Shown: positions 14,049 through 35,538 of the stretch, one piece after another
Layout: every line of letters starts with the position of its first letter
Position numbering within the stretch: position 1 is the first letter of the stretch
Assembly: GCA_002345205.1 (NCBI GenBank)
Contig: DDVI01000089.1
Coordinates: forward strand, 11,008 to 75,007
Reading direction: 5' to 3'
Length of the DNA: 64,000 nucleotides
Source: Bdellovibrionaceae bacterium UBA2316
GTDB taxonomy: Bacteria > Bdellovibrionota > Bdellovibrionia > Bdellovibrionales > Bdellovibrionaceae
Notes under the pieces: model-generated
Seen by the model: only the letters and a program-made list of their open reading frames with translations
Databases searched by the model: none
Told to the model about the DNA's origin: nothing
Translations under genes and position numbers: made by a program

Positions 14049-14606
14049 GTGCAAACAGAAAATACTCTTGAGAAACCCATTACCGAGATAGAAGACTATA
14101 AAATTCTAGTCTATGACTTACATTCGTCTGCGCTCGCAACTGATGCTATGGGCCTTCTTTCTCAGGATGCGGTTTTCAATTACGACGATGCCGCAAATAT
14201 TTGGGGTGAACTAAACCCTGCATTATTTGACTTGCAACAAAAAATTATTTCTCTTAGTCAGGTCTACCAAAGTAAATTTGTACAAGATTCAGAACGCGAA
14301 ATAGAAAGTTTCGATGGATGGTATGTGAGTACCGCAACCTCTAATACGCATTTGCAAAAGCATCATCATCGCGGTCATTCGGACATAAATTGCCTTTATT
14401 ATGTTTACGCAGATATGCAGGATCCTGGTCCAATTGAAATTTATTTAGAAACTGACGAAAATAGCGCACCTCATGAGGAACATTATCTATTTAAACCTTT
14501 TCCAGGAGCCCTTATTTTTTTCCCTGGAGCTAGTCCTCACCGCGTTAGACCGTATGAACGCCTTCGTTTAACAGTGGCCACCAATATCAAATTGAAAAGC
14601 AAATAA
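14049..14606 (+). CDS. 2OG-Fe(II) oxygenase-like protein (PF13759/TIGR02466-like)
   Basis: The motif layout is HHHRGHSDINCLYYVYA ... GALIFFPGASPHRVRPY ... RLTVATNIK. This matches the H-x-H ... FP..H.V.P ... R.s.s.N pattern I recall for that family. It is a paralogue of 16090..16671. Confidence 0.55.
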   Translation: MQTENTLEKPITEIEDYKILVYDLHSSALATDAMGLLSQDAVFNYDDAANIWGELNPALFDLQQKIISLSQVYQSKFVQDSEREIESFDGWYVSTATSNTHLQKHHHRGHSDINCLYYVYADMQDPGPIEIYLETDENSAPHEEHYLFKPFPGALIFFPGASPHRVRPYERLRLTVATNIKLKSK

Positions 14607-16683: not shown

Positions 16684-17721
16684 ATGTTTCACGTTTTTGA
16701 AAGTATCTATTTTGATTTTCACCACGGGATTTCCGATCACGGTTATGATCGGATCGTCATCGGCAAATCAGAATTATTTTCCGCACAAGACTACGCATCG
16801 TTTACAGAATTTGTCGAAAAAGAACTTAATGGCAAACCTTCTGATTTTTGGCGATTTTTGCGTTCATATCCCCGAAAATCCTCGCGCCTGATAGTGTATT
16901 TAGAGGCGAATCAATTATTAGAATTGCAGCTAGAACTTTGGAAAAATATTTTGCCACATGCTTCAAATGATACTTTAGTTCAACTCCACAAAACCTACCT
17001 TGAAGACTGTAAATTTCGAAGGTTCCTATCGACAAATGTGGAAAGTGAGAAATCAAAGCAAGGCTACTCGATGCTCAAGCCTTTCGATACGGTCACTCTG
17101 GAACAAGTTATTCAGAAAATTTCACCTATACCTTTCCTTAAAGAGCTAAAAAAAGAAGAACTCAGTTTCGAGTACCAACTGAGCGAATTTTTACTGAATC
17201 CAAATTCACCGATAAAGGCTTGCGTTTTAGACAAGGTGCGGCATTTTACGTGGTCTAATTGGCTGGCCGAGCTTGAAATATTAAAAGGCGATATTCTGAA
17301 CGGAATTATAGACGTAAATCGCCTTCTTCCTGATGATTCGCATATTGATGTCAGCGACCCGACGCTGCTATTTCACCAAATTATTGGCCACCCTTATCTG
17401 AGCTGGGTCACGGATCTTGAATTTTACTCTAGCAATTATGATTTTATCGAGCGAAGCTACGATAAAAATATTTTTAAAAAGATCTACGAGCGATTTTATA
17501 GCTTATGGCAAGTAAATGGCGAGGATATGAGCGAGCTTATTGATCTGATATACTCCCATCAATATGAAAAATTACTTTATCGCGACATTCAAAGAAGCTT
17601 TGGTTGCGTGTATTCGGCCGGGCGATTTCGCAATCGTATGAATCAAATTTTAATTTCCTGGATTTACTCTATGAAACGAGCCAATAACACGGCCGCGTTA
17701 AAGTCGTTAAGTCTTAGTTAA
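16684..17721 (+). CDS. Hypothetical protein, 'MFHxF' family (paralogue of 30735..31832)
   Basis: It shares blocks with the 30735 product: MFHVF/MFHFF, RIVIGKS/RVIGSR, ELSFEYQLSEFLLNPNSP/TLSFEYHLANHFYNPNGP, QRSFGCVYS/QRFGSIFA and ISWIYSMKRANNT/ISYILEKVRANKT. Confidence 0.65.
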   Translation: MFHVFESIYFDFHHGISDHGYDRIVIGKSELFSAQDYASFTEFVEKELNGKPSDFWRFLRSYPRKSSRLIVYLEANQLLELQLELWKNILPHASNDTLVQLHKTYLEDCKFRRFLSTNVESEKSKQGYSMLKPFDTVTLEQVIQKISPIPFLKELKKEELSFEYQLSEFLLNPNSPIKACVLDKVRHFTWSNWLAELEILKGDILNGIIDVNRLLPDDSHIDVSDPTLLFHQIIGHPYLSWVTDLEFYSSNYDFIERSYDKNIFKKIYERFYSLWQVNGEDMSELIDLIYSHQYEKLLYRDIQRSFGCVYSAGRFRNRMNQILISWIYSMKRANNTAALKSLSLS

Positions 17722-17817
17722 TTTATTTAATCCTTTATATTTATGACCCAAAAAACAGATGTATTTGATTTCCAAATAGGTTAGCGTTTTCTTTGAATTG
17801 TGCCCAGGGGAGGGTTC

Positions 17818-18888
17818 TTGAGTAAGGATCTAATTGTATATTTGAAAACTACAGATACTTGCCAACTAAATTGCGATCATTGTTTTACTAATGGTCAAAA
17901 TGGAAAAAAAGGTTGGTTCGACGTACCCAAGACAATTGATTTCTTCCAAAGGCTGAAGAAATACCAGCCTCACTATGATCAAGGCCACTTTGCCTTGCAT
18001 GGTGGTGAACCCATGCTATGTCCGCCCGAACTTTTATTTGAAGCTTGGCATGGAATCAAAGATTTATGGCCAAAACTATGGTGGACAGTTCAGACTAACC
18101 TTACCTATTCTTTGACTGATGATAAATTAAAAGTCTTCGATCAAATTTGCAATAAAGTGATAGGCACGTCATGGGATTACGGAATTCGCTGGAAAAGTCC
18201 TAAACAAAAAGAACTTTGGGCAAAAAACGTAAAACAACTGACTAGCACTGGCCATAAAGTCACCGTGATGGTCAGTCTAAATAAAAAACTAATCCAAGAA
18301 AAAGAGCCAATCGATATTATTAACGAGTGTGCCGAGCTTGGCATTCAGTACATAAACTTCGAACGTATTACAAATGCGGGCAATGCGTCTCTTAATTCAA
18401 GCGTCTTTCCGTCGAATAAAGAACTCGATGCTTGGATAATGAAAATGTGGCATCAAACGCAAGAGCACCGAACGTGGGAATATATTTCCAATATGTTCTT
18501 AGACTCCATTTTTACATCTTTAGTATATAATACACATTCTGGCTGCCGCTCGCGACAATGCGAACAAAAAATTCTGACTATTAATGCAGACGGAACCGTT
18601 GGTGGATGCCCTAACGAAGCGACACATAAACATTATGGTCGTATCGATGATACCATAGAAAAACTAATGTATAGTCCGTGTCGCCTATGCAATATTCAAA
18701 GCGAAGCGGTACGCAACGATGTATGCAATACCTGCCCGGTCTACGATATTTGTAATGGCGATTGCCACCAGTTAGCTTGGCAAGATGATGTATGCGCGGC
18801 TCCTCGCAGCCTGATGGTCCATTTGCGCGAGCGCAATGACCAGACCCTTTACAAAGAAATTATGAATGGATTCATGGGGCAAGAATGA
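17818..18888 (+). CDS. Radical SAM enzyme with complete SPASM domain
   Basis: It has a CQLNCDHC (Cx3Cx2C) cluster, an LHGGEPML SAM motif, and a full SPASM signature: CEQKILTINADGTVGGC (Cx10Gx4C) plus CNTCPVYDICNGDC (Cx2Cx5Cx3C). I chose the start at TTG 17818, which follows a GGGGAGGG Shine-Dalgarno; the track has GTG 17800. Confidence 0.9.
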   Translation: MSKDLIVYLKTTDTCQLNCDHCFTNGQNGKKGWFDVPKTIDFFQRLKKYQPHYDQGHFALHGGEPMLCPPELLFEAWHGIKDLWPKLWWTVQTNLTYSLTDDKLKVFDQICNKVIGTSWDYGIRWKSPKQKELWAKNVKQLTSTGHKVTVMVSLNKKLIQEKEPIDIINECAELGIQYINFERITNAGNASLNSSVFPSNKELDAWIMKMWHQTQEHRTWEYISNMFLDSIFTSLVYNTHSGCRSRQCEQKILTINADGTVGGCPNEATHKHYGRIDDTIEKLMYSPCRLCNIQSEAVRNDVCNTCPVYDICNGDCHQLAWQDDVCAAPRSLMVHLRERNDQTLYKEIMNGFMGQE

Positions 18889-19898
18889 ATCTACCGGTAG
18901 AAAACTTATACGCAAAATTTGGAGACCCTTATCGCGTCGTCGAGTTTCGCGCATTTTCGTTTAATACGTGCCGGGCCGGTTGCAAGAATTGCTTCTACCA
19001 AAAGACAAATAACGAATTTTATGATTTCCAAAAATGTTATGACCTGGCCGTTGATTTTAAAAAGAATCATTACACCTTAGAAACGTTTTACATTCTTCCT
19101 ACTGACATTTTTGAAAATGATTTTAATTACCGCGTGTTTTACGACGAAAAGTTTAAAAGTGTCGCCAAGCTATTTAACTATATTGGTGTGGCTTCAACAT
19201 TAAGGCATGGTTTCGATGAAAAAATATTTGATTATTTCTTTCATGAATTTCCCGGCCTAAAGATTGAACTTCACGTTAATCTACTAGAAGAAGAAATTGG
19301 AAAACCAGACTACGTACAGTTTTTAAGCCAAACGCTAACGCAGATTAAAACTCAGTACGGCGACCAAATCCTGATAAATCTGGCATTAAACATTGGTTCC
19401 CAGTGGCAGACCGGTCAGTTAAATCAAGTAAAACACTTAGTAAGTGAGTACTCTCAGGATAAAATATTAGAGCTAAATTTTACGTTTATGTTTAACGATA
19501 AGATCAGCTACGCGGAAAAAGCACGCCTAATTGAGAGCAGCTATCCCGTTTTAGAATATTTTGGCAGGGAATTTCAAAAGACCGAGCGACGATTTAATAG
19601 TCGCACTTTGTTGCGTAAGCCATCGATCACATTTAAAAATGATCGCATTTACTTATCGCCAATTATTCCATTTGATGAGTACATCTTTATGGACGAGCCA
19701 GATTTTCAGCTGTCAGAAACTAATTTTGATTCGTTTTTGACGACGTATCAAAAAATTGAAGCTAAAAACATTCCCCAACGTCAGGAATGCCAAAGCTGTG
19801 AACATTTCGAGTATTGTTATGGAAAAGGATTTTTTTCAATTATGAATCATTATAATTTGCCTTGCCTAAAGGTGTGTGGAGGAAAGAATGGCAACTAA
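18885..19898 (+). CDS. Radical SAM-like enzyme, degenerate SPASM/twitch C-terminus ('PTD' subtype)
   Basis: It has a CRAGCKNC (Cx3Cx2C) cluster. The GGE motif is replaced by ILPTDIF. Only a partial C-terminal motif remains (CQSCEHFEYCYGKG), and there is no Cx9-15Gx4C. An ATGA overlap joins it to the upstream gene. Confidence 0.8.
   Translation: MNLPVENLYAKFGDPYRVVEFRAFSFNTCRAGCKNCFYQKTNNEFYDFQKCYDLAVDFKKNHYTLETFYILPTDIFENDFNYRVFYDEKFKSVAKLFNYIGVASTLRHGFDEKIFDYFFHEFPGLKIELHVNLLEEEIGKPDYVQFLSQTLTQIKTQYGDQILINLALNIGSQWQTGQLNQVKHLVSEYSQDKILELNFTFMFNDKISYAEKARLIESSYPVLEYFGREFQKTERRFNSRTLLRKPSITFKNDRIYLSPIIPFDEYIFMDEPDFQLSETNFDSFLTTYQKIEAKNIPQRQECQSCEHFEYCYGKGFFSIMNHYNLPCLKVCGGKNGN
19878..19883 (+). 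promoter_or_regulatory. Shine-Dalgarno (GGAGGA) for the 202-aa candidate substrate ORF
   Basis: GGAGGA lies 4 nt upstream of ATG 19888, inside the 3' end of the preceding rSAM gene. Confidence 0.6.
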
Positions 19899-20496
19899 TC
19901 AAGGTGACGAAGCACAAGCCGCCGATCGCGCCATATTTTTTAATAAGTTTATGAATATCGTGAGACAACCGATACTAGGGGTTGGGGCGGGAAATCCCAA
20001 TGTGGTTTGGTATAGCGGGAATCATCCGTATTCAGGGTATGCATCGGTAGCAAGTCAGCTTGGGCCTAGAACCATAAATCCTGCGCAAACAAACCCCGCA
20101 ACGTTCGTACGAGGCACTAGAATAACATCGGCGCAAATGATGAACGTATTAAATACGTTGCATGGTTTTGCAAATCAGATTACTCGGTTTAGAAATACTA
20201 CTTGGCGATATCGTCGAACTCCAGGGCCAGACAACATTGGCGGCCCCCAGTTTACTGCGCTTCGAAACACCTACCTTTCTACCATTCCAATGCCCTCGAC
20301 CGCAGCATTTCAGGTAGCTCAAGAAATTACGTTTGTTGGCCCAGTGCCGCCGACTGCGCCAAACAGCGCCATCGATGCGTTTATGAATGCGCTTAGAACC
20401 AGTTTAACAAATTTTATTGCCGCTAATCCGGTTCAATTAACAGCCTGCCATGCCTCTTGCCACTCTTCGTGTCATGGGGCCCGAGGAAGAAGGTAG
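19888..20496 (+). CDS. Candidate substrate/precursor protein of the rSAM cluster; 202 aa, Lys-poor, Arg/Ala/Pro/Thr/Asn-rich, C-terminal CHASCHSSCHGARGRR
   Basis: It is an ORF with a strong Shine-Dalgarno, embedded between rSAM genes with overlaps on both sides. It has one Lys in 202 aa against about 16 Arg. Its only Cys residues are the three in the C-terminal CHxS-CHxS-CH motif. The track start GTG 19876 adds 4 aa. Confidence 0.65.
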   Translation: MATNQGDEAQAADRAIFFNKFMNIVRQPILGVGAGNPNVVWYSGNHPYSGYASVASQLGPRTINPAQTNPATFVRGTRITSAQMMNVLNTLHGFANQITRFRNTTWRYRRTPGPDNIGGPQFTALRNTYLSTIPMPSTAAFQVAQEITFVGPVPPTAPNSAIDAFMNALRTSLTNFIAANPVQLTACHASCHSSCHGARGRR

Positions 20497-20498
20497 AT

Positions 20499-21614
20499 TT
20501 GAGTCATTTCAGTAGTGATTTTAACGTTGTTTATCTGCGCGTGGTTCAGGGATGTAATCTGAACTGCACGCACTGCTTTACGTTGGGCAATAAAGATAAG
20601 TACGAGCTAGCAAGCCTAGCGCAAATCACTGAATTCCTTACCAGCATTCGCAAGAATGTAAATCCAAAGGGTGCCGTATTTTATATCCATGGTGGAGAGC
20701 CCTTCTTAGCGCCTAAAGAACATCTTAGAGCCGTTAACGAAATCATTAGATCAACGTTTCCAGATATTAAAATAAATATAATCCCACAAACTAACTTAAT
20801 GTTTAAGGTCGACCAGGAATTTGTAGACTTCATCAACGAAGAATACGCAGGCCACATCGGCGTTTCTTGGGATCATGGTATCCGTTTTCAAACAACGACT
20901 CGGGCACTGGATGAAGACTTATTCTTAAAAAACTTCCGCTACCTAGTTGAAAAGGATATCGAAATGGCCGTCGCCATTACGGTACAGAAGCACCTTTTAA
21001 CCGAAGATCCTATTTCCATTGTTCAAAGACTCGAAGGTGCAAAATCAATTGATTTTGAATTCCTTACGATGTTCGACAAGAAAACGATGGATCTAAAAGT
21101 TAACAATACAGAATGGTCAAAGTTCTACCATCAGATCGTCACTTATTATTCAAATAATAAAACAACTTGGTCACTGCCTCAGGTGGATTTGCTAACAAAG
21201 AGTTACATCGAAAATAAGATTTACCAGTGCAAATGTAACTGCTGTCAGCACAGAACATTTACAATGAATTGCAACGGGACCGTGGGCCTGTGTCCAGATG
21301 AAACTTACGTAGCCCCTATCTCCACAGTAAAAGAAATGGCTAACGATTGGACAAGTTTTAGCACCAAAGCGGAAACTTTATATTTAAGACAACTGGGGCA
21401 AGAAATAAATTCGCTATGTACCCAGTGCGAATTCTTTGATGTATGCGGCGGAAATTGTGAACCGACGTTGTTTTCAGAGAACGACGAAGAATGTCCACTG
21501 TCCAAGCAATCCATCGCATACCAGTTTAATAACATTCAAATATTTCAAAATAAATTACAAGAAGCTAAAGAAAATTTAGTCGAGCTTAGAGAAAGAGGTC
21601 CTTCATGCCATTAA
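20499..21614 (+). CDS. Radical SAM enzyme with complete SPASM domain
   Basis: It has CNLNCTHC, IHGGEPFL, CQHRTFTMNCNGTVGLC (Cx10Gx4C) and CTQCEFFDVCGGNC. The likely start is TTG 20499, 5 nt after GGAAGAAGG; the track has TTG 20457, which overlaps the previous ORF. Confidence 0.9.
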   Translation: MSHFSSDFNVVYLRVVQGCNLNCTHCFTLGNKDKYELASLAQITEFLTSIRKNVNPKGAVFYIHGGEPFLAPKEHLRAVNEIIRSTFPDIKINIIPQTNLMFKVDQEFVDFINEEYAGHIGVSWDHGIRFQTTTRALDEDLFLKNFRYLVEKDIEMAVAITVQKHLLTEDPISIVQRLEGAKSIDFEFLTMFDKKTMDLKVNNTEWSKFYHQIVTYYSNNKTTWSLPQVDLLTKSYIENKIYQCKCNCCQHRTFTMNCNGTVGLCPDETYVAPISTVKEMANDWTSFSTKAETLYLRQLGQEINSLCTQCEFFDVCGGNCEPTLFSENDEECPLSKQSIAYQFNNIQIFQNKLQEAKENLVELRERGPSCH

Positions 21615-22366
21615 AAGCATTACACGAAATTGCACCTGAAAACATACGGAATGTAGGCGTTCCCCTGGCGATCGAACAGATTAAAGAGTTTTTCGAAAAT
21701 AAAAAACTTTTCTTCTTCGTTGATTATGCCCAAAGTAAAATCAAAGGAAATATGTTTCTAACATATCTTTCTAATCTAGATTTACCTTTTGAGATCGTCC
21801 TCAGCGGTGCTTCCAAGCAAGAAACGTTTGATTTAATCAAAATATTTATGGAAACCCGCAATCAAAGCTCGTCCGATATATTAAGACTTACGGTTGCCGA
21901 TATTATTTTAACCCATAAAGGCGTAAACACTGAAAACTGGCTAATGAACCCGGTTTTAAGCAAAGACGATATCAAAGAGTTTATAAGTCAAAATGGCGAA
22001 TTGGTTAAAAAGTGGGATACATTTTTAAGTTCATTAATGATATTTATTTTAAAGTCCTTCACTGCGTTTGAAGAGCAGATAAACACGAGTGAAACATTTC
22101 CTCATTTAAAAGATCCAAATTACATCGGCGGAAACGTCGTGCAATTGTTTGATATACCGTGCTTCTTGGAAATGTTCTTTTCGGTTCCTTATAGCGGCGA
22201 ACTTTTCTATTTCGATGCTCAGTTTGATGAACTTATGTTCAAAGGTAAAAATCTTTTCCATTATTTTTTCTGCCCGGAAAACACCCTAGTTGCTTTTATT
22301 CACGGAGCCGGTTCGGGATCAATTACTCCCGAATTAGCGGAGAAATTTTTTGAGGCTAAAGTCTAA
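21605..22366 (+). CDS. Hypothetical protein (253 aa) embedded in the rSAM operon
   Basis: Both gene junctions overlap (10 nt upstream, TAATG downstream). It has no Cys-cluster motifs. No family recognised. Confidence 0.65.
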   Translation: MPLKALHEIAPENIRNVGVPLAIEQIKEFFENKKLFFFVDYAQSKIKGNMFLTYLSNLDLPFEIVLSGASKQETFDLIKIFMETRNQSSSDILRLTVADIILTHKGVNTENWLMNPVLSKDDIKEFISQNGELVKKWDTFLSSLMIFILKSFTAFEEQINTSETFPHLKDPNYIGGNVVQLFDIPCFLEMFFSVPYSGELFYFDAQFDELMFKGKNLFHYFFCPENTLVAFIHGAGSGSITPELAEKFFEAKV

Positions 22367-23466
22367 TGGATGCCTACTTAGCGTCACGAGAGCTTGCAGA
22401 AGCCTCGCATTTTTATTTGAATATTAACTTTGAAATCCTAAATGGATGCAAATTTAAATGCCGTGGATGCCACGTTGAAAAGAACGCGCAGCAACCCATA
22501 AGCACAGACGAATTTAACGGCCTCTCTAAACTATTGCAAAACTTTGAGCAGAGTTTATATCGACCATTTATCGCTTTCGTGGGTCCGACTGATTTCTTGA
22601 GCGCAGATAATTTTGTCTCGACGTTTGAATCACCCGAAATTATTAAACTTTTCCATCACTTTAAACGCGTTTCATTGCAAACGACTTATTTAGATATCAG
22701 CAAAGCTGAACTAGCCGCAAAGATACTTAAAGAGCACTATTCTGAAATCGAACTAGAAATCAATATTGTCGTCGATCCGGCCCGTATAATGGATGCTAGT
22801 TACCTAAGTATTCTAGAAAAAAATAAAATGAAGTTTATGGAGCTGTTGGAACGTGATGAAGTGCGGACCTTTGGAATTATGAACGTCTATAACTATGATC
22901 AGACTAAAATTCCGGATCTGCTACGCGATTACGATTTTATGCATCAACGTGTTGAACATCTATTTGAAACAACGATTGATTACAATTTCTCTATGGGCCG
23001 CAACAAAGACTTGTCCAATGAGGAATTTTTAGACCTTACATTCCGTATTCGCGACCTCTTCAATAGCTCTATCGTTTCCGATGACAAAGCCGAATACCTG
23101 CGATTTAGCTTTGGCAAGCTCACGGACTCGCTAATCGAGCGCCAGTACAACTATCGCAATGGAAAGCTATACTATTCGCCTTTGCTCTACGAACGATTCG
23201 TTACATTTAAGGATGAATTTGAAGTTCCTGTTACCCAGCATACGGCCCGCGAGATTGAAGAGTACGAAATGAAGGTGCAACTGGAACAGTACGAAGTCGC
23301 CTCCTCTATGGATGAATGTGAATCGTGTACGTTCCTAGGTTCGTGCGTAGACCGAGGCATTTTGTTTCTGATGAACACGTATAAAACTAAAAAATGCCTA
23401 GTAGCAAAAAAGGCGCTATTCGCCGTTAATTCCATGGGGGCGTTGCCCATTAATAATCATGAGTGA
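22366..23466 (+). CDS. Radical SAM-like enzyme, degenerate SPASM C-terminus ('PTD' subtype)
   Basis: It has CKFKCRGC. FVGPTDFL replaces GGE, as ILPTDIF does in 18885..19898. The C-terminal CESCTFLGSCVDRG lacks the fourth Cys and there is no Cx9-15Gx4C. Confidence 0.8.
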   Translation: MDAYLASRELAEASHFYLNINFEILNGCKFKCRGCHVEKNAQQPISTDEFNGLSKLLQNFEQSLYRPFIAFVGPTDFLSADNFVSTFESPEIIKLFHHFKRVSLQTTYLDISKAELAAKILKEHYSEIELEINIVVDPARIMDASYLSILEKNKMKFMELLERDEVRTFGIMNVYNYDQTKIPDLLRDYDFMHQRVEHLFETTIDYNFSMGRNKDLSNEEFLDLTFRIRDLFNSSIVSDDKAEYLRFSFGKLTDSLIERQYNYRNGKLYYSPLLYERFVTFKDEFEVPVTQHTAREIEEYEMKVQLEQYEVASSMDECESCTFLGSCVDRGILFLMNTYKTKKCLVAKKALFAVNSMGALPINNHE

Positions 23467-24511
23467 AAATAGTTTTCTATACCACGTACTAAAAGATAAA
23501 TTACCGATCAGTTCCGAGATCGAGCTGCACCTATTTGATTTCTGCAACTTGCGTTGTACGTTCTGCGGCCAAGATCATGAAAGCAAAGAAGGAATGGAAG
23601 AAATTAGAAACAAAATTCTTCCCGTCCAAGAATTTATCTCTAAAAATACTATCGACAGCCATATTGTTAATATAATGGGCGGTGAAATATTCAATGATGA
23701 AGTTCCCGACCATTTATTTAAAGACTATGAAAATTTAGCCACATCTATTCATGAGCACGCCCAGAGTCTAGGACATCAGTGTACTTTCAATTGGGTTACG
23801 AACCTCGTTTTCAAGAAGTCCCATCGAGTAGAAAACTTATTAACGGCACTTAAATCAAAAGGTATTTCAACGAACCTTTCTACTTCGTATGATTTTTCAG
23901 GAAGAAAAACATCTCTTTGGAAAGAAGACTTATTTAAAGAAAATTTGGAAAAATTCAAAACTAATATTTATACCGTTGGTTTTGTTATGACCAAGCCGAC
24001 CATCCAATTTCTTTTGAATCAAAATGATCCCTATTTTGAATATCTTTACGGCCAATTCCCTATCTATTTTGATTTTTATGTACCAGAAAAAACGGCGCGG
24101 TTTTTAATGCCTTCTGATCAAGATATGCTAGACGCGTACTTATTTTTGGCAAAACGATATCCGAAAGTCAGCCCAGTTAAAGAACTGCTTACCCGCCGAG
24201 AGAATCGCATGACTTGCTACTCCCTGAACAAACTGACTTTGCTGCCATCTGGAAAAGAAGTTAAATGCCGTTATTTGAAATACGAAACTCACGAATTTAA
24301 TAATCCGATCGATTACTCATCAAATGAAAATATCGTTACGGCACATTTGGAAGAAAACGGCTGCCTCAGCTGCGAATGGTTCGAGCGTTGTAGTTTTCGT
24401 TGCTTTGTCCAAGCGGATTGGTCTACTCGCGTGAAGACTCCGGATTGCTTTTTTAAAACGTTTTTCGCAGAAGTGATTGGCGATAAGAATGAGGTCCAAA
24501 CTTGGAATTAA
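23459..24511 (+). CDS. Radical SAM enzyme with complete SPASM domain
   Basis: It has CNLRCTFC, IMGGEIFN, CYSLNKLTLLPSGKEVKC (Cx11Gx4C) and CLSCEWFERCSFRC. Confidence 0.9.
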   Translation: MSENSFLYHVLKDKLPISSEIELHLFDFCNLRCTFCGQDHESKEGMEEIRNKILPVQEFISKNTIDSHIVNIMGGEIFNDEVPDHLFKDYENLATSIHEHAQSLGHQCTFNWVTNLVFKKSHRVENLLTALKSKGISTNLSTSYDFSGRKTSLWKEDLFKENLEKFKTNIYTVGFVMTKPTIQFLLNQNDPYFEYLYGQFPIYFDFYVPEKTARFLMPSDQDMLDAYLFLAKRYPKVSPVKELLTRRENRMTCYSLNKLTLLPSGKEVKCRYLKYETHEFNNPIDYSSNENIVTAHLEENGCLSCEWFERCSFRCFVQADWSTRVKTPDCFFKTFFAEVIGDKNEVQTWN

Positions 24512-25509
24512 TTATTAAACCCACCGAGCTTTGCAATTTCAAATGCACTTTCTGCAGTTCAACTCATTTGGTAGACGATAAACGCACCCAACTGAGCCAT
24601 GAACTCATATTTTCCTTTTTAAAACGCTTTCCTAATACATCTACCATCATTGTAAATGGCGGCGACCCGTTGATGATGAAACCAGACTATTACTGGGAAA
24701 TAATTCGATATTTGGAAGAGCGAAATATGAATACGACTCTTTCCTTTACGACGAATCTTTGGGCATTTTATAAAAATCCAGAGCCTTGGGTAGAGCTTTT
24801 CAAACACCCGCTGGTGGGAATTAACACATCATTCAACTATGGCCAGACACGAAGAATTACCAAAGACCGCGTTTATACAGAGGAAGATTTTTGGAAGGTG
24901 TCTGATTTATTTTTGGAAAAAATCGGTTACCGCCCCTCTTTTATCTCGGTCATTACCGAAGAAAATTTTTCCACTGCGATCGATAATGTTTATTTAGCAA
25001 AAAAAATGAACGTAGAATGTAAACTTAATTATGCTCTAGCCTCTGGTGACCAAGGCTCCTCATTTTTGATGGGTAAAATCTATGAGGTTTACTTGCAAAT
25101 CATTCGGCTTGGACTGACCGAGTGGGAATACAACTCTAAGCAAATTATCAGAAAAAAAAATGCGATATCAACATCGTGCCCACTGAACCGTGCTTGTGAT
25201 GAAACAATCCGATGTCTTCAGCCAGAAGGCGATTATTACAGCTGCGGCGCTTTTGGGGACGATAAACAGTATCCGATCAGTTTCCAAGAGGAAGTCATTC
25301 AAGGGAAAAAGTTTCTTCCATTAAAAGATCAAGCCCCCCTAGCTTATTTAAAAGAAGACTGCCTGACGTGCCCTCTTTTTGAAATTTGCAATGGCTGTAA
25401 GAAAAATATCTCTGATATAAAAAAGTCTAATCGTGTTCAAGAACACTGTTCGGCGATGCAAAAAAATATGATCGAACTCGATGGGCTCGTTAATTATGGA
25501 ATCCATTAG
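24502..25509 (+). CDS. Radical SAM enzyme with SPASM domain
   Basis: It has CNFKCTFC, VNGGDPLM, CDETIRCLQPEGDYYSC (Cx10Gx4C) and CLTCPLFEICNGC (a Cx2Cx5Cx2C variant). The TTG start follows a GAGG. Confidence 0.9.
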   Translation: MELIIKPTELCNFKCTFCSSTHLVDDKRTQLSHELIFSFLKRFPNTSTIIVNGGDPLMMKPDYYWEIIRYLEERNMNTTLSFTTNLWAFYKNPEPWVELFKHPLVGINTSFNYGQTRRITKDRVYTEEDFWKVSDLFLEKIGYRPSFISVITEENFSTAIDNVYLAKKMNVECKLNYALASGDQGSSFLMGKIYEVYLQIIRLGLTEWEYNSKQIIRKKNAISTSCPLNRACDETIRCLQPEGDYYSCGAFGDDKQYPISFQEEVIQGKKFLPLKDQAPLAYLKEDCLTCPLFEICNGCKKNISDIKKSNRVQEHCSAMQKNMIELDGLVNYGIH

Positions 25510-26431
25510 TCTATCGATAAATCCGTCTTACTATTGCAACTTTCGTTGTGATTTTTGCTATCTCAGTGAAGCGCAGTTATCGTCTTCGCAAAGAATTACT
25601 CCGGATGAGTTATACTCACGTTTATTAGAAATTTCGATGCATAGAAAAATCTCGCATATTGATTTATATGGCGGAGAAATTGGAATTTTGCCCAGCAGTT
25701 ATCTGGACCAGATAAAAAAAATAATGCGTTATTTTTACCAAGGCCCAATTAGCGTCATTACCAATTTAAAAGTCATCAACCCTTTTTTTGCGTCCGCGGA
25801 CGTTGATTTATCAGTAAGCTGGGACTACCTTGCGCGCGAAAGCCATGCCGAAGTATATGAAAACATGAAGAAATTAGGTCGGCCTTTCCATGTATTGATG
25901 CTGGCCAGTCGCAAGCTGATCGATATAGACGATTCGTCTCTTAACGTATTGTGGGAAAAGCTAAACGGATTGCCTAATTTGCAGTCGTTAGAAATTAAAC
26001 CGTACTCTAAAAATCCTCATCATCCTCAAGAGGTTTCTTTTATTCAATTTGAAAACTGGGTTAAAAAATGGGTTTCGCAAGTCAATCAGTTTCCATTTGA
26101 ATTTATCAATTTGAAAAAAATAGAAAAGAGCTTATCCGGAAACGTCTCTGCGTGGTCGGATGATCATGTTTATATCACTCCCAGCGGAAAGCTAGCCGTG
26201 CTTGAGTTTGATGCCAATCATAACGAATTCTTTATGCCATTAAATAGTATGGACGAATACTTTGCTTGGACGGATTTAGAAAAACGGAAAATTAACTCGA
26301 ATCAGTATTGCTCTAAATGCGAGTACTTAGGCAGCTGCCTCAGTGAACACTTGCAGGAAGTAGTTACCTTATCTAATTCTTGCAATGGTTTTAAAAATCT
26401 ACTGGATTGGTACAAAAATGAAAGAGCATAA
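25481..26431 (+). CDS. Radical SAM enzyme, degenerate SPASM C-terminus
   Basis: It has CNFRCDFC and LYGGEIGI. The C-terminal CSKCEYLGSCLSEH has His in place of the fourth Cys, and there is no Cx9-15Gx4C element. Confidence 0.8.
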   Translation: MGSLIMESISLSINPSYYCNFRCDFCYLSEAQLSSSQRITPDELYSRLLEISMHRKISHIDLYGGEIGILPSSYLDQIKKIMRYFYQGPISVITNLKVINPFFASADVDLSVSWDYLARESHAEVYENMKKLGRPFHVLMLASRKLIDIDDSSLNVLWEKLNGLPNLQSLEIKPYSKNPHHPQEVSFIQFENWVKKWVSQVNQFPFEFINLKKIEKSLSGNVSAWSDDHVYITPSGKLAVLEFDANHNEFFMPLNSMDEYFAWTDLEKRKINSNQYCSKCEYLGSCLSEHLQEVVTLSNSCNGFKNLLDWYKNERA

Positions 26432-26843
26432 AGTTAAACAATTAGTTTTTAACCGACTTGGCACGTTCGATGATAACTTGAATTCACTAACCTATATTTT
26501 GGCAGAAGATCCAAAAGATATAATCCAGCATGCAGTTGATTACTTTCAGAAGCCTTGCTCTGAATTAATTTATCCTGCGAAATCTTACGCCGTCGCCATT
26601 ATCTACGCACATTTGCTGGAAAAAAACTTCGATGACGAATTCTCCAGTTCACTGGATGATGTCGATCTTTTTTGCGGGAACGACAAGTTTTTTGTTCCCT
26701 ATTCTTCGGACAAGAAGACTTATGATACAATTCTAGAGCGAATTGGATACTCAAATGCATTTGTTTTAAATACTGAATTACCGCAGATTTCAAAAACTGT
26801 ACGGTACTTTCAAAGCGAGTTTCAACTCGAGGTCCTTACCTAG
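26385..26843 (+). CDS. Hypothetical protein (about 141-152 aa), last gene of the rSAM operon
   Basis: The ORF overlaps the preceding rSAM gene. An alternative ATG lies at 26418 (MKEHKVKQ...). No family recognised. Confidence 0.55.
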   Translation: MVLKIYWIGTKMKEHKVKQLVFNRLGTFDDNLNSLTYILAEDPKDIIQHAVDYFQKPCSELIYPAKSYAVAIIYAHLLEKNFDDEFSSSLDDVDLFCGNDKFFVPYSSDKKTYDTILERIGYSNAFVLNTELPQISKTVRYFQSEFQLEVLT

Positions 26844-28730: not shown

Positions 28731-28857
28731 ATAAAAGATACTTTAGGGTACATTAGCAAGCAAGCGGCCAGTCTAAAAATGGGATCAAAGTGTCAAAATA
28801 TTAGTTTGAAATCAAAGGCGATTGTGTTTACCCTATATAGATGGTGAGGATTTAAAA

Positions 28858-33029: not shown

Positions 33030-33440
33030 TTAAACGCTGACTAAGGTCCAGCCTTCTTTTTTGCCCATAAATTTAAAACCAAAACTCGCATTTTGATCTA
33101 CAAGGACAGGCTCATTTTTTCCCGCAAGAAGTAGGTTATTTGATTTAACAACGGGAGGATTCAAAGTCCAATCTTGCCCCTCATTAATGAAGACGAACGT
33201 TTTCAAATACTCTACTTTTTCCGGCAGAACGAAAACCTGACCTGGCTCTAAGTGGACTACGGTCTCTTTAGAGGCGTTAGTTCGATGACTCTTTGAGGAG
33301 TCGGCTCCTTCCGCCAAAGTGTCTCGATTTAGGTCGGACCATTTTAGAAACGAAGGGAAAACAAAAGATCCAGAGAATACGCTAAAGAAAAATCTTCTTT
33401 TCATACCTTTAGTATAAATGTAGAATATCCAAAAGGACAA
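33030..33440 (-). CDS. Hypothetical secreted protein
   Basis: An internal start at 33404 would give a signal-peptide-like N-terminus (MKRRFFFSVFSGSFVFPSF). No family recognised. Confidence 0.5.
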   Translation of the reverse strand: MSFWIFYIYTKGMKRRFFFSVFSGSFVFPSFLKWSDLNRDTLAEGADSSKSHRTNASKETVVHLEPGQVFVLPEKVEYLKTFVFINEGQDWTLNPPVVKSNNLLLAGKNEPVLVDQNASFGFKFMGKKEGWTLVSV

Positions 33441-34495
33441 TGAATTTCTATAAATCCAATATGTTAAAAAAACCTTATGCGAAAATCACAAAAATGAATC
33501 AAAATGGGATGTCACTGATCCTTGTTTTGATTTTGCTTGGCATTTTTTCCGTAATGTTTTTAGCGGTTAATCGATTGATTTTTTGGAATCGAAATATGTA
33601 TAACGAAATTATTTCGACTATCAATATTGATGATTTGAATTCGCAAATTTATTTACTCTTGCAAGACCGACGCGCTTGTCACAACACATTTGGCGGAATA
33701 AATAGAGGAGCACCGCCTGTTGCCGCAACTACCATCCGAGATGCCGCCAACGTTATCGCATTTCAAACTAATAATCTTTACGTTAAAAATGTGACTCCAA
33801 TCACCATGGCGATAACAAATTTTGTTAGCCCAGTGGTAGGTATTGAACCTTATAATGCAACGTTTGACTTAACCATAAATTATCGAATTCCATTTGGCGA
33901 AAACCAAAAAGACAAGCCACGAACATTCCAAATACGAACATTCGCACCCGCTGGCTGGCCCAATGGTACGCCTCTTTCGCGTACTTCAGCTCCTTTAGCT
34001 GCTATTACAGATGGCTGCGTGTCCGCAGGAGACTTGGCTGAAGTGGGCGTAGATTTAAGCGATCTCATTTCTAAAAATCTTCCCGACCAAAAACTATCTA
34101 ATTTAATTATGAATCCAATTAATGGAGTCACAAGTAGCATCCTGACAGTAAACGGAAACGCGACTTTAAATAACGTCCTTACTGTTTCCGATTCCCGCGC
34201 AAAAGACGATATTACTCCGTTTGAATTATCAGATGCCCAGTGGGAAAAAATCAGGGGCTATTCGTTTTCTTGGAAAGGCAGTGATGCCAAAGATATAGGT
34301 TTCATGGCCCAAGACGTAGAAAAGGTTATACCAGAACTTGTCGACGGGACTCAGGCCGATGGTTATAAGCGCATAAATTACACTGCATTTATACCTCTAC
34401 TTTTAGAATCAACAAAAAAACTAGATGCCGAAAATAAAGTATATGAGAAAAGAATTTTGGATTTAGAAACTAAACTTTCGAATATGAAGGAATAG
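33440..34495 (+). CDS. Prepilin-like N-terminus (no Glu5) + two-Cys pilin-like head + C-terminal peptidase S74-like intramolecular chaperone domain
   Basis: The motif ...MNQNG/MSLILVLILLGIFSVMFLAV resembles a prepilin leader plus hydrophobic alpha-1. Cys residues occur in RRACHNTF and TDGCVSAG. The C-terminus reads ...VNGNATLNNVLTV/SDSRAKDDITPF...GYSFSWK...GFMAQDVEKVIPELV...INYTAFIPLLLESTKKL followed by a coiled coil. The start is uncertain (33440, 33461 or 33494). Confidence 0.75.
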   Translation: MNFYKSNMLKKPYAKITKMNQNGMSLILVLILLGIFSVMFLAVNRLIFWNRNMYNEIISTINIDDLNSQIYLLLQDRRACHNTFGGINRGAPPVAATTIRDAANVIAFQTNNLYVKNVTPITMAITNFVSPVVGIEPYNATFDLTINYRIPFGENQKDKPRTFQIRTFAPAGWPNGTPLSRTSAPLAAITDGCVSAGDLAEVGVDLSDLISKNLPDQKLSNLIMNPINGVTSSILTVNGNATLNNVLTVSDSRAKDDITPFELSDAQWEKIRGYSFSWKGSDAKDIGFMAQDVEKVIPELVDGTQADGYKRINYTAFIPLLLESTKKLDAENKVYEKRILDLETKLSNMKE

Positions 34496-34497
34496 AA

Positions 34498-35535: not shown

Positions 35536-35538
35536 GAT

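What the first reader, a model, noticed from the sequence alone, without database searches (positions are those of the whole stretch)
19888..20496. Compositionally aberrant 202-aa ORF ending in (CHxS)2-CH-GARGRR: candidate rSAM substrate
**Seen in sequence**
- A GGAGGA Shine-Dalgarno lies 4 nt before ATG 19888. The ORF overlaps the preceding rSAM gene by 11 nt, and its last codons (cga gga aga agg) double as the Shine-Dalgarno for the next rSAM gene (TTG 20499).
- The protein has 1 Lys but about 16 Arg and is rich in Ala, Pro, Thr, Asn and Gly. The neighbouring proteins are Lys/Glu/Phe/Tyr-rich.
- My hand counts of 60-nt lines give roughly 42-58% G+C inside this ORF, against about 28-40% in the flanking rSAM genes.
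- Its only three Cys residues lie in the extreme C-terminal motif A-CHAS-CHSS-CH-GARGRR (20446-20475).

**Established knowledge and inference**
- rSAM/SPASM maturases commonly act on Cys-containing C-terminal cores of precursors encoded beside them.
- The H-x-S triplets separated by Cys loosely recall the His-Xaa-Ser (HxsA) repeat proteins that pair with the rSAM enzymes HxsB/HxsC. That is a family resemblance from memory, not a demonstrated homology.
- At about 185 aa, the part upstream of the motif is far longer than usual RiPP leaders. The whole protein may therefore be the modified product.
Basis: partly seen in the sequence, partly recalled or inferred. Interest (0 to 1): 0.85.

Follow-up and report, generated by a model that had tools for sequence, protein, structure and literature searches.

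The report
Hypervariable fibre-module protein with rSAM-linked tail
The ORF is a real gene from a large, unnamed protein family of phage host-recognition modules and predatory bacteria: its body varies freely, it always ends in the same 16 residues (CHxS-CHxS-CHxS-RGRR), it always sits among radical-SAM enzyme genes, and one member has been detected in phage particles.

Summary
The ORF at 19888-20496 (+) encodes 202 aa with 1 Lys, 15 Arg and 3 Cys, all three Cys in the terminal CHASCHSSCHGARGRR.

- **Composition.** G+C is 48% against 39% in the flanks. The excess lies only at codon positions 1 and 2, so it reflects amino-acid content, not foreign DNA.
- **Family.** There are 75 tail-bearing representatives at 50% identity and more than 150 viral contigs. 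Bodies share about 18% identity, yet C-H-x-[S/N/A] x3 followed by R-x-R-R-stop is invariant. Pfam and NCBIfam have no model, PHROG 35144 is "unknown function", and the predicted fold has no PDB match.
- **Context.** The gene is tightly coupled to rSAM genes and a 250-aa partner (J). In 37 of 39 J-seeded loci the tail ORF lies just upstream; the other two lack upstream sequence. In phages the cassette follows the baseplate and tail-fibre genes.
- **Cellular hosts.** In cellular genomes it is largely confined to Bdellovibrionota, next to pilin/S74 fibre genes.
- **Virion evidence.** The Atu_ph07 homologue gp170 is virion-associated and peaks in the top gel band.
- **Variation.** Between near-identical strains the gene changes 17 times faster than its neighbours, and 14 of 15 changes are nonsynonymous.

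Best reading: an exposed structural or recognition protein whose constant tail is matured by the rSAM set. That maturation is inferred, not shown. It is not an HxsA homologue.

The parts
19888..20496 (+). H: 202-aa ORF, member of the (CHxS)3-RGRR-tailed protein family. It has a folded, hypervariable alpha/beta body plus the constant tail.
20446..20493 (+). Invariant C-terminal tail CHASCHSSCHGARGRR (codons 187-202): three C-H-x-[S/N/A] units followed by R-x-R-R at the carboxy terminus.
   Evidence: 228 sequences: C, H and R positions fixed, partly by selection; the His+2 position is S/N/A and never Gly. The AF2 model has low confidence here (pLDDT about 55-57).
19878..19883 (+). GGAGGA Shine-Dalgarno sequence, 4 nt before ATG 19888.
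17800..18888 (+). F: radical SAM/SPASM enzyme. In most phage loci its orthologue is the gene immediately upstream of H.
   Evidence: Best named hits are anSME/DynA-type, far below cut-off.
18885..19898 (+). G: divergent rSAM (CxxxCxxC at residues 29-36), K-type paralogue, overlapping H by 11 nt.
   Evidence: same cluster as 22366-23466
20499..21614 (+). I: radical SAM/SPASM enzyme. It starts 2 nt after the H stop codon.
21605..22366 (+). J: 253-aa obligate partner of H (phrog_20767, unknown function). Its structure is confidently predicted but has no PDB match.
22366..23466 (+). K: rSAM. It is multiplied 3-6 times in the marine 'H H K ... K K K' architecture.
23459..24511 (+). L: rSAM, present in both cassette architectures.
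24502..25509 (+). M: rSAM/SPASM.
25481..26431 (+). N: rSAM.
26385..26843 (+). O: small conserved cassette protein (phrog_20737, unknown function).
16684..17721 (+). E: 345-aa conserved cassette protein of unknown function, found in 83 of the loci. A paralogue lies at 30735-31832.
14049..14606 (+). Probable 2OG-Fe(II) oxygenase-like protein at the left end of the cassette. Phage cassettes carry cupin and 2OG-oxygenase genes in the equivalent places.
   Evidence: PF13759, E 1.4e-4, below cut-off; for the phage counterparts
28822..30735 (+). B12-binding rSAM, a recurrent accessory gene of the cassette (18 loci).
33440..37108 (+). Three pilin-like (N_methyl) proteins with a C-terminal Peptidase_S74 fibre-chaperone domain, plus a 200-aa partner at 35539-36141. 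S74 + f24 genes lie within the fetched stretch beside the cassette in 5 other loci (4 titled Bdellovibrionota, 1 untitled metagenome contig).

Best explanation
H is a structural protein of a conserved "fibre plus maturation" module.

**Where the module is found**
- Jumbo phages and T4-like phages carry it in their host-recognition region.
- Bdellovibrionota carry it chromosomally, beside pilin/S74 fibre genes.

**What H looks like**
- The body is a small alpha/beta domain of previously undescribed fold. It is surface-exposed and free to vary, and in this species it is actively diversifying.
- The last 16 residues are a constant handle: (Cys-His-x-Ser)x3-Arg-Gly-Arg-Arg-COOH.

**Proposed mechanism (inferred)**
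1. H is made in the cytoplasm without a signal peptide.
2. The translationally coupled rSAM enzymes engage its flexible tail. These are F or K-type plus L, together with the obligate partner J.
3. They install intramolecular cross-links or oxidations on the Cys/His/Ser triplets. The H-x-S/N/A units fit the aromatic-X-X3 motif of His-C2-to-C-beta cyclophane (triceptide) chemistry. Cys thioether or Cys oxidation are alternatives. 2OG oxygenases, cupins and a B12-rSAM would add tailoring.
4. The matured tail acts as a rigid clasp, possibly metal-binding or covalently reactive, that locks H into a very stable fibre-associated assembly. The variable body would mediate contact with host or prey.

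**Shown:** gene reality, family, tail invariance, obligate linkage to the rSAM genes and J, fibre-module context, virion presence of one member, and hypervariation.

**Inferred:** that the tail is the enzymes' substrate, the chemistry, and the clasp and recognition roles.
For: **Family and tail**
- 76 representatives at 50% identity matched; 75 end in the tail.
- Across 228 sequences the His+2 position is S/N/A and never Gly, although the search pattern did not constrain it.

**Linkage**
- The order F-H-J-(E)-L-M-N-O, or f5-H-H-K-f11-J-K-K-K, recurs across more than 120 viral loci.
- The gap from the upstream rSAM gene to H has median 0 nt (95% are 30 nt or less). The gap from H to the next gene has median -1 nt.
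- An unbiased J-seeded scan gave 39 new loci. 37 have the tail ORF directly upstream of J, and the other 2 have no upstream sequence.

**Structural context**
- VrlC-like DUF4815 protein, a virion structural protein, a tail fibre and a cupin lie immediately upstream.
- rSAM cassettes have been reported inside the pelagimyophage "host recognition cluster" (PMC7029224).

**Composition**
- H has Lys 1.8% and Glu 2.4%, like the fibre protein f5 (2.6 and 3.2). The enzymes have about 7% of each.
- Some members are fused to Gly-rich or fibre-like N-termini.

**Virion evidence**
- Atu_ph07 gp170 is AUZ94952, confirmed by a 31.89 kDa mass match and by the RefSeq locus tag gp170.
- It was found in purified virions with 8 peptides and 35% coverage, most abundant in band 1. 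Proteins of about 30 kDa (gp55-62) peak in band 8.
- The adjacent F (gp171) and J (gp169) are absent from the virion list (PMC6102473 Table S5).

**Hypervariation**
- H has 15 changes in 609 bp (14 nonsynonymous). The other 12 cassette genes have 16 changes in 11.1 kb. Binomial P = 7e-12.
- There are 8 distinct H sequences. G, J and K are each one identical sequence on 8-11 contigs.
- Codon 116 has four alleles. Only one change touches the tail, at an x position.

**Other**
- The tail is low-confidence, hence probably flexible, in the AF2 model.
- F and I are full-length SPASM enzymes without an N-terminal RRE-like extension, as in protein-modifying anSME.
- His-specific triceptide synthases acting on H-x-x motifs exist (PMC11499958).
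Against: - No modification has been observed. Association does not identify the substrate.
- Five to eight rSAM enzymes for a 16-residue tail is a lot. Some or all may act on the fibres, on glycans or on a small molecule.
- The marine architecture lacks an F-type enzyme next to H, so no single rSAM type is a universal neighbour.
- None of the rSAM genes reaches the cut-off of any characterised maturase family.
- Invariant Cys3His3 is also what a pure metal site would look like.
- Band-1 migration of gp170 could reflect an SDS-resistant oligomer, aggregation or carry-over rather than cross-linking. It comes from one experiment on one phage.
- Hypervariation was seen in one Pseudobdellovibrionaceae population but not between phages RSL2 and RSF1.
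Confidence: 0.5

Rival explanations
1. The tail is a metal-binding motif only. It would be unmodified and would coordinate Fe, Zn or Cu, for example three Cys/His layers along the axis of a trimer, as the His-x-His iron sites do in the T4 gp37 fibre tip. That would give a very stable oligomer. The rSAM, 2OG and cupin enzymes would act on something else in the module (fibres, glycans or a small molecule), and H would simply be another structural gene of the operon.
For: - Three Cys and three His are invariant with a regular 4-residue spacing.
- H is in the virion and migrates far above its monomer size.
- Its composition is fibre-like and its context is a fibre module.
- No rSAM type is universally adjacent to H.
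- Comparison with the gp37 iron sites rests on my own knowledge and was not tested here.
Against: - It does not explain why H is never found without the rSAM genes and J.
- It does not explain the strong conservation of Ser/Asn/Ala, never Gly, two residues after each His.
- It does not explain the invariant R-x-R-R carboxy terminus.
- Metal binding and modification are not mutually exclusive.
Confidence: 0.2
2. H is a scaffold or precursor for a released product. As with PqqA/PQQ, MftA/mycofactocin or classical RiPPs, the C-terminal residues would be cross-linked and then cleaved off. The result would be a small peptide-derived cofactor, metallophore or toxin, and the body would serve as an unusually long leader.
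For: - rSAM-SPASM enzymes commonly act on the C-terminal cores of adjacent precursors. This is established knowledge of PqqE, MftC and sactipeptide/ranthipeptide synthases.
- Tandem H-H copies resemble duplicated precursors (29 pairs).
- The cassette contains many tailoring enzymes.
Against: - No protease or exporter is a conserved member of the cassette.
- The "leader" is a confidently folded 170-280-aa domain. It is hypervariable and under amino-acid-changing selection, the opposite of a recognition leader.
- The Atu_ph07 homologue is in the virion with 35% peptide coverage.
- The cassette sits in phage structural modules.
Confidence: 0.12
3. H is an accessory redox or Fe-S protein. The Cys/His tail would bind an Fe-S cluster, of mitoNEET or Rieske type, and H would deliver electrons or clusters to the many phage-encoded rSAM enzymes.
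For: - The tail has Cys3His3 ligands.
- H is obligately linked to the rSAM genes.
- Phages might need their own reductant for rSAM chemistry. This is an inference.
Against: - A housekeeping electron carrier should be conserved, not hypervariable.
- It should not be a virion component when the enzymes are not.
- The composition is that of a fibre protein.
- The fold shows no similarity to a ferredoxin, flavodoxin or Rieske protein.
- The basic RGRR terminus is unexplained.
Confidence: 0.05
4. The ORF is spurious, or a horizontally acquired piece of foreign DNA explains the G+C anomaly.
For: - G+C is 48% against 39% in the flanks.
Against: - Hundreds of homologues have an intact frame and the same terminus.
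- G+C at the third codon position equals that of the neighbours.
- The same G+C offset is seen in 175 of 176 loci.
- Peptides from a homologue were detected by MS.
Confidence: 0.01

Closest known systems
Triceptide (three-residue cyclophane) RiPPs with His-specific rSAM/SPASM synthases (HaaB on HAA, HtkB on HTK, YhhB on HNR)
   Same: - The tail carries repeated His-x-X3 units, with X3 = Ser/Asn/Ala and never Gly, next to rSAM/SPASM genes.
- This matches the aromatic-X-X3 motif on which these enzymes form a His-C2-to-C-beta bond (PMC11499958; tail logo).
- The best specific NCBIfam hit of gene I is YhhB.
   Different: - The hit is far below cut-off (61 bits against 445).
- Every His is preceded by an invariant Cys, and the tail ends in invariant RxRR. 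Neither feature belongs to the triceptide motif as that paper describes it.
- The substrate is a folded 126-300-aa virion protein, not a short leader-core peptide.
- The cassette holds 5-8 rSAM genes plus J and E of unknown fold.
- The setting is phage and predator fibre modules.
   Same: - Both have H-x-S triplets in a protein encoded beside paired rSAM genes.
   Different: - H has no hit to any NCBIfam model, so none to an HxsA model if that release holds one.
- Only a 28.9-bit N-terminal hit of gene M to HxsC was found, against a cut-off of 267.9.
- Here the triplets are interleaved with Cys, number exactly three, and sit at the extreme C-terminus.
rSAM/SPASM enzymes that modify whole proteins: anaerobic sulfatase-maturing enzyme (Cys/Ser to formylglycine in C/S-x-P/A-x-R) and QhpD (thioether cross-links in the QhpC subunit)
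   Same: - The substrate would be a full protein that stays intact.
- F and I align over nearly their full length to the anSME model and lack an RRE-type N-terminal extension.
- The last unit, C-H-G-S-R, has the Cys-to-Arg spacing of the sulfatase motif.
   Different: - Scores are 46-66 bits against a cut-off of 349.
- Position 3 of the unit is Gly/Ser/Thr, never Pro and rarely Ala.
- There is no sulfatase or amine-dehydrogenase context.
Phage receptor-binding and fibre-tip proteins, and the Bdellovibrio MAT fibres (Caulton et al. 2024, PMC10769870)
   Same: - H lies beside tail-fibre or S74-chaperone genes in both phages and Bdellovibrionota.
- Its composition is fibre-like.
- One member is in the virion.
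- It undergoes rapid amino-acid change.
- MAT fibres show that predators reuse phage fibre parts.
   Different: - H has no sequence or fold similarity to known fibres or tips.
- The constant part is the C-terminus, whereas fibres usually keep a constant N-terminus.
- No known fibre system comes with a dedicated rSAM set.
- The MAT paper does not mention these genes (0 occurrences of "radical SAM").

Membership tests
His-Xaa-Ser system (HxsA/B/C/D) | The precursor matches an HxsA His-Xaa-Ser repeat model. | tested here: not met
   H has 0 NCBIfam families at E <= 0.01. This assumes the release holds an HxsA model.
His-Xaa-Ser system (HxsA/B/C/D) | The paired rSAM enzymes HxsB and HxsC are present as equivalogs. 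| tested here: not met
   The only hit is gene M to TIGR03977 HxsC: 28.9 bits against a cut-off of 267.9, N-terminal 80 residues only. No HxsB hit is among the families listed (best 25 per protein shown).
Triceptide RiPPs (3-residue cyclophanes) | The precursor carries aromatic-X2-X3 motifs, with a C-beta available at X3. | tested here: met
   Three H-x-[S/N/A] units. Counts at the three X3 positions are S198/N19/A6, S182/N33/A10 and S192/A29/N7, plus a few Q, K, R or D and no Gly, in 228 sequences.
Triceptide RiPPs (3-residue cyclophanes) | The maturase belongs to a characterised 3-CyFE family (XyeB, GrrM/OscB, FxsB, YhhB, AmcB and others). | tested here: not met
   Best scores are 61 bits against 445 (YhhB), 40 against 370 (FxsB), 33 against 310 (GrrM) and 28 against 450 (XyeB), all for gene I.
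Triceptide RiPPs (3-residue cyclophanes) | A loss of 2 Da per motif, with an aromatic-to-C-beta bond shown by MS or NMR. | not testable with these tools
   Requires co-expression and MS/NMR.
anSME / sulfatase maturation | The substrate motif is (C/S)-x-(P/A)-x-R. | tested here: not met
   The third unit is C-H-[G129/S47/T23/N10/A6]-[S/A/N]-R. The spacing fits, but Pro is never at position 3 and Ala only rarely.
anSME / sulfatase maturation | The enzyme reaches the TIGR03942 equivalog cut-off. | tested here: not met
   F scores 46.2 bits and I 66.2 bits, against a cut-off of 349.45.
Classical RiPP precursor | A short precursor with a conserved leader and a variable core that is proteolytically released. 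| tested here: not met
   The arrangement is reversed: a variable folded body of 110-280 aa and an invariant C-terminal 16-mer. No conserved protease or exporter is present. The Atu_ph07 homologue is in the virion with 35% peptide coverage.
Prokaryotic viperin / anti-phage defence system | Proteins match PADLOC defence models as a system. | tested here: not met
   Only weak pVip hits to the generic rSAM core (17-45 bits) and one 16.6-bit hit to a candidate model. H, J, E, G and K have none. The cassette is mostly phage-borne.
Diversity-generating retroelement target | A template repeat is near the variable region, with a reverse transcriptase. | tested here: not met
   No second copy of any part of H was found in the 64-kb window; the best off-target match is 17 nt. 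A reverse transcriptase was not searched for systematically, and a remote DGR is not excluded.

The most novel reading that the evidence does not exclude
A previously unrecognised class of enzymatically matured recognition protein is shared by jumbo or T4-like phages and predatory bacteria.

- A dedicated multi-rSAM/2OG-oxygenase pathway converts the universal (CHxS)3-RGRR tail into a cross-linked clasp, possibly metal-binding or chemically reactive.
- The clasp fastens a rapidly diversifying adhesin domain onto tail fibres in phages, or onto pilin/S74 fibres in Bdellovibrionota.
- rSAM chemistry would then be a structural requirement for host or prey recognition.
Probability: 0.3. Interest if true: 0.9.

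Novelty: new variant of a known kind. Interest (0 to 1): 0.78.

Why it matters
**Function for orphan genes.** If the tail is matured by the adjacent enzymes, this would be rSAM post-translational chemistry applied to a phage virion structural protein, which the literature searches here did not turn up. It would also give a function to the unexplained rSAM, cupin and 2OG-oxygenase gene blocks. These are repeatedly listed, without interpretation, in jumbo-phage genomes (RSL2, RSF1, FLC6, S13, Atu_ph07) and in the host-recognition clusters of marine pelagimyophages.

**Phages and predators.** The same cassette is chromosomal in many Bdellovibrionota, beside pilin-like proteins that carry a phage-fibre chaperone domain. 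That extends the idea that predators borrow phage attachment machinery.

**A handle for mining and for experiments.** The tail is a simple, highly specific sequence signature. It makes the family easy to mine. Tractable hosts are available for testing it: Agrobacterium with Atu_ph07, and Ralstonia or Burkholderia with the RSL2/FLC phages.

Tried and rejected
**Annotation searches**
- Pfam and NCBIfam searches of H gave nothing. PHROGs gave only an unknown-function family that matches mainly the tail.
- The H model (pLDDT 83) had no PDB fold match with E below 0.7 and matched only uncharacterised phage proteins in BFVD. A profile search against PDB sequences gave nothing.
- J was modelled at pLDDT 92 in the hope of identifying an RRE, protease or methyltransferase. 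It has no PDB fold match with E <= 0.001 (best E 0.08) and no profile hit.

I used degenerate DNA patterns instead.

**Literature**
- A search for the motif string returned only irrelevant text.
- Searches for phage rSAM/RiPP or virion cross-linking papers found nothing on this cassette. One query was malformed.

**Ideas rejected**
- DGR. The changes in H include an Asn AAC codon with four alleles. However, there is no template repeat in the window, and changes in the flanks involve adenine about as often. I dropped it as a local explanation.
- General diversifying selection. It is not seen between RSL2 and RSF1, where H is 82.8% identical, within the range of its neighbours.
- Defence system. 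PADLOC gives only generic weak viperin-like hits.
- Foreign DNA. Rejected on G+C by codon position.
Full report
**1. The observation**

I read the sequence and listed the ORFs.
- ATG is at 19888. GGAGGA lies at 19878-19883, four bases upstream.
- The ORF overlaps the upstream rSAM ORF (18885-19898) by 11 nt.
- The stop codon is at 20494-20496, and TTG 20499 starts the next rSAM gene.
- The product is 202 aa with 1 Lys, 15 Arg, 25 Ala, 20 Thr, 18 Asn, 16 Pro and 15 Gly. Its pI is 10.8.
- Its three Cys are at residues 187, 191 and 195, within CHASCHSSCHGARGRR.

G+C is 0.483, against 0.39 on either side. The excess is confined to codon positions 1 and 2: 0.505/0.535/0.411, against 0.475/0.365/0.401 for the upstream rSAM gene. 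It recurs in 175 of 176 homologous loci, by 6.3 points on average. The compositional aberration is therefore real, but it is a property of the protein and not a sign of foreign DNA.

**2. A real and large family with an invariant terminus**

A word-indexed search found four relatives. An exhaustive phmmer search found 76 representatives at the 50% clustering level.
- Nearly all are 170-215 aa and align through to the last residue.
- 75 of the 76 carry the tail. The exception is a 1,275-aa protein that repeats the N-terminal part seven times.
- In a 66-sequence alignment the mean column identity is 18%, yet C187, H188, C191, H192, C195, H196, R201 and R202 are invariant.
- Over 228 tail-bearing sequences the logo is C-H-x-[S/N/A]-C-H-x-[S/N/A]-C-H-x-[S/A/N]-R-[G/S/N]-R-R-COOH.
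- The position two residues after each His was not part of any search pattern. It is Ser in 80-87% of sequences, Asn or Ala in nearly all the rest, and never Gly.

Known libraries do not describe the family.
- Pfam and NCBIfam have no model for it.
- PHROG 35144, of unknown function, matches mainly the tail.
- All named database entries are "hypothetical protein".
- AlphaFold2 gives a confident alpha/beta body (mean pLDDT 83) and a low-confidence tail.
- Foldseek finds nothing in the PDB and only uncharacterised phage proteins in BFVD. A profile search of PDB sequences is empty.

**3. Genomic context**

In 124 of the 126 loci then held, an ORF of at least 50 aa ends in the tail. The size classes are about 126, 140, 170-220 and 257 aa.

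*Cultured phages.* The cultured carriers are the jumbo phages RSL2, RSF1, FLC6, FLC8, S13 and RsoM3USA, Atu_ph07, pPa_SNUABM_DT01 and, more weakly, BcepSauron and BcepSaruman. Phosso was found only through J, and its H gene was not examined.

*Gene order.* I clustered all ORFs of 172 loci plus the window. Two recurrent architectures appear.
- (a) VrlC-like DUF4815 protein, small virion protein, tail fibre, cupin, F (rSAM/SPASM), H, J, E, then rSAM genes (L, M, N), 2OG oxygenases, sometimes a B12-rSAM, and O.
- (b) A marine form: tail fibre, H, H, K (rSAM), f11, J, then K three to five times, then L.
- Annotation of these neighbours comes from PHROGs and Pfam.

*Coupling.*
- The gap from the upstream rSAM gene to H has a median of 0 nt, and from H to the next gene a median of -1 nt. 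About 95% of these gaps are 30 nt or less.
- 81 of 86 H genes with two genes on each side have an rSAM within two genes.

*Unbiased test.* I seeded a scan with a J motif, independently of H. It gave 62 loci, 39 of them new. In 37 of the 39 a CHxxCHxxCHxxRxRR-stop ORF lies directly upstream of J. In the other two, J starts at the end of the fetched DNA.

*Literature.* Zaragoza-Solas et al. (PMC7029224) describe the region between VrlC and gp14 of pelagimyophages as a "host recognition cluster". They note rSAM cassettes in it, without assigning a function. The jumbo-phage papers merely list the cupin, Fe-S oxidoreductase, rSAM and 2OG genes.

**4. The window is a predator's chromosome**

- The window also encodes SecA, AcrB, GlnRS, cytochrome oxidase subunit I and a hybrid sensor kinase.
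- The exact protein occurs in Pseudobdellovibrionaceae MAGs (MBL7557224.1).
- In one genome per species of 185,579 species, the tail pattern gave 46 hits. About 38 are genuine, and roughly 26 of those are Bdellovibrionota (Bdellovibrio, Bacteriovoracaceae, Halobacteriovoraceae, Pseudobdellovibrio). Some lie on contigs of 1.3-2.8 Mb.
- Most of the other genuine hits have phage-type neighbours. A few hits are low-complexity artefacts.
- In the window and five other loci, the cassette is flanked by Peptidase_S74 genes plus a 200-aa partner. Four of these loci are titled Bdellovibrionota, and one is an untitled metagenome contig.
- In the window, two of the three S74 proteins match the type IV pilin N-terminal methylation motif, and the third has a hydrophobic N-terminal segment.
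- Caulton et al. (PMC10769870) showed that B. bacteriovorus uses phage-fibre-like S74 proteins to handle prey. They do not mention this cassette.

**5. Evidence on what H does**

*(i) It is a virion protein in one phage.*
- Atu_ph07 AUZ94952 (296 aa) has a calculated mass of 31.89 kDa. The neighbouring AUZ94958 and AUZ94959 give 66.07 and 21.66 kDa. These match gp170, gp176 and gp177 of Attai et al. (PMC6102473, Table S5) exactly. RefSeq tags the protein FDI40_gp170.
- gp170 was identified in purified virions with 8 unique peptides and 35% coverage, in bands 1-9, most abundantly in band 1.
- Band 1 otherwise holds mostly proteins of 75-139 kDa, whereas proteins of about 30 kDa (gp55-62) peak in band 8.
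- The adjacent F (gp171) and J (gp169) are not in the virion list.
- H is therefore packaged and the enzymes are not. H runs as if it were part of a heat- and SDS-resistant or covalent high-mass species. This rests on one experiment.

*(ii) Its composition is that of a fibre protein.* H has Lys 1.8% and Glu 2.4%. The co-encoded tail fibre has 2.6% and 3.2%, and the enzymes have about 7% of each. Some members are fused to Gly-rich or fibre-assembly-like N-termini.

*(iii) It is a hotspot of amino-acid change.*
- Four strain contigs are about 99.9% identical to the window across 12.2 kb.
- H has 15 changes in 609 bp, 14 of them nonsynonymous. The other twelve genes have 16 changes in 11.1 kb. 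That is 24.6 against 1.44 per kb (binomial P = 7e-12).
- Codon 116 has four alleles (N, V, G, D).
- Only one change touches the tail, at a variable x position.
- The protein collection holds 8 distinct H sequences at 97% identity or more. G, J and K are each one identical sequence on 8-11 contigs.
- No template repeat exists in the window, so a local DGR is unlikely. Positive selection or recombination is the simpler reading.
- The effect is not seen between RSL2 and RSF1.

**6. Mechanism**

The constant, flexible, C-terminal tail in an otherwise free-running protein, its obligate coupling to rSAM/SPASM genes, and the conserved Ser/Asn/Ala two residues after each His all point one way. The tail is best explained as the site on which the enzymes act.
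- F and I align over nearly their whole length to SPASM maturases and have no RRE-like N-terminal extension, as in anSME, which works on whole proteins.
- The H-x-S/N/A units fit the aromatic-X-X3 motif of triceptide synthases. HaaB, HtkB and YhhB are His-specific examples that form a His-C2-to-C-beta bond (PMC11499958).
- The invariant Cys could instead, or additionally, give thioethers or be oxidised.
- I propose that the matured tail is a rigid clasp, possibly metal-binding or reactive, that fixes H in a fibre-associated assembly, and that the variable body contacts the host or prey.
- None of this chemistry is shown.

The main rival is that the Cys3His3 tail is an unmodified metal site and the enzymes act elsewhere. 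Weaker rivals are a released peptide-derived product, which the folded hypervariable "leader", the virion presence and the absence of a protease or exporter all contradict, and an Fe-S or redox helper, which the hypervariation and packaging contradict.

**7. Comparison with known systems**

- It is not an Hxs system. H has no NCBIfam hit, and the best HxsC hit scores 28.9 bits against a cut-off of 267.9.
- It is not a member of any characterised cyclophane, sactipeptide, ranthipeptide or anSME family, since all scores are far below cut-off.
- It is not a defence system.
- It works most like rSAM maturation of a whole protein (anSME with sulfatases, QhpD with QhpC), with a triceptide-like motif.
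- Four things are new: the substrate type (a hypervariable virion and fibre-module protein with a constant C-terminus), the size of the enzyme set together with two conserved partners of unknown fold (J and E), and the distribution across phages and predatory bacteria.
- I rate it a new variant of a known kind.

**8. Verdict**

Interest is high, because a simple signature now links a widespread orphan phage gene block, a virion protein and predatory bacteria, and because the decisive experiments are straightforward.

Noticed in passing
window 33440-34495, 34498-35535, 36113-37108 (+), with 35539-36141 between them: Three paralogous proteins of about 340 aa carry a C-terminal Peptidase_S74 (phage endosialidase/tail-fibre intramolecular chaperone) domain. 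Two of them match the type IV pilin N-terminal methylation motif (e.g. KGFSLLEVLVATGILAIVS), and the third has a hydrophobic N-terminal segment. A pilin/phage-fibre chimera next to the rSAM cassette may be a distinct kind of predator surface fibre. S74 genes with the 200-aa partner lie beside the cassette in five other loci (L001, L131, L137, L139, L171).
   Followed up: partly
window 19888-20496 compared with L212, L214, L216, L218: Between near-identical strains, codon 116 (AAC) of H has four alleles (N, V, G, D) that differ at its first two bases. Most other changes in H also involve adenine. This resembles DGR mutagenesis. However, the window has no template repeat, and the changes in the flanks involve adenine about as often. 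A remote DGR was not excluded.
   Followed up: partly
window about 13426/13427 (ORF 13017-13445): Relative to the near-identical contig L212, the window lacks 1,228 bp. This truncates a 480-aa HAMP/HisKA/HATPase sensor kinase to a 142-aa ORF. In strains L216 and L218 the genes to the left of the cassette are different again (RCC1-repeat protein and others). The cassette's left border therefore lies in a variable region.
   Followed up: partly
window 28822-31832 (+): A B12-binding rSAM (637 aa) is followed directly by a second copy of the unknown 345-365-aa E family (phrog_36207). They are separated from the main cassette by three small reverse-strand ORFs with no database hits. B12-rSAM genes recur in 18 of the related loci.
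   Followed up: partly
P0035 (1,275 aa); BFVD A0A8S5USJ7/USJ8/USV2: The body domain of H also occurs without the tail. It appears as seven tandem repeats in a 1,275-aa protein and inside 500-660-aa proteins of an uncultured myovirus. This suggests the body is a reusable structural module and the tail an add-on tied to the rSAM cassette.
   Followed up: no
L005, L030, L039, L070, L091 and others (marine viral contigs): Small H proteins of about 126 aa occur as tandem pairs directly after the tail-fibre gene. There are 29 pairs with a median identity of 51%. They are followed by three to six paralogous K-type rSAM genes, and no F-type SPASM enzyme is adjacent. This architecture is distinct from the window's.
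   Followed up: partly
window 21605-22366 (J) and 16684-17721 (E): J is as tightly linked to H as any rSAM gene. Its structure is predicted with high confidence (pLDDT 92), yet it has no PDB fold match and no profile hit. E (83 loci) likewise has no Pfam hit. Both are conserved unknowns that probably hold part of the mechanism.
   Followed up: partly
L154 (Dysosmobacter segnis BX15, 4.3-kb contig), L159 (Bacilli MAG), L172 (Methanobacteriota MAG): Genuine tail-bearing H genes with rSAM neighbours also occur on contigs assigned to a Firmicutes isolate, a Bacilli MAG and an archaeal MAG. These are probably phage or prophage DNA, or binning errors, but I did not check them.
   Followed up: no
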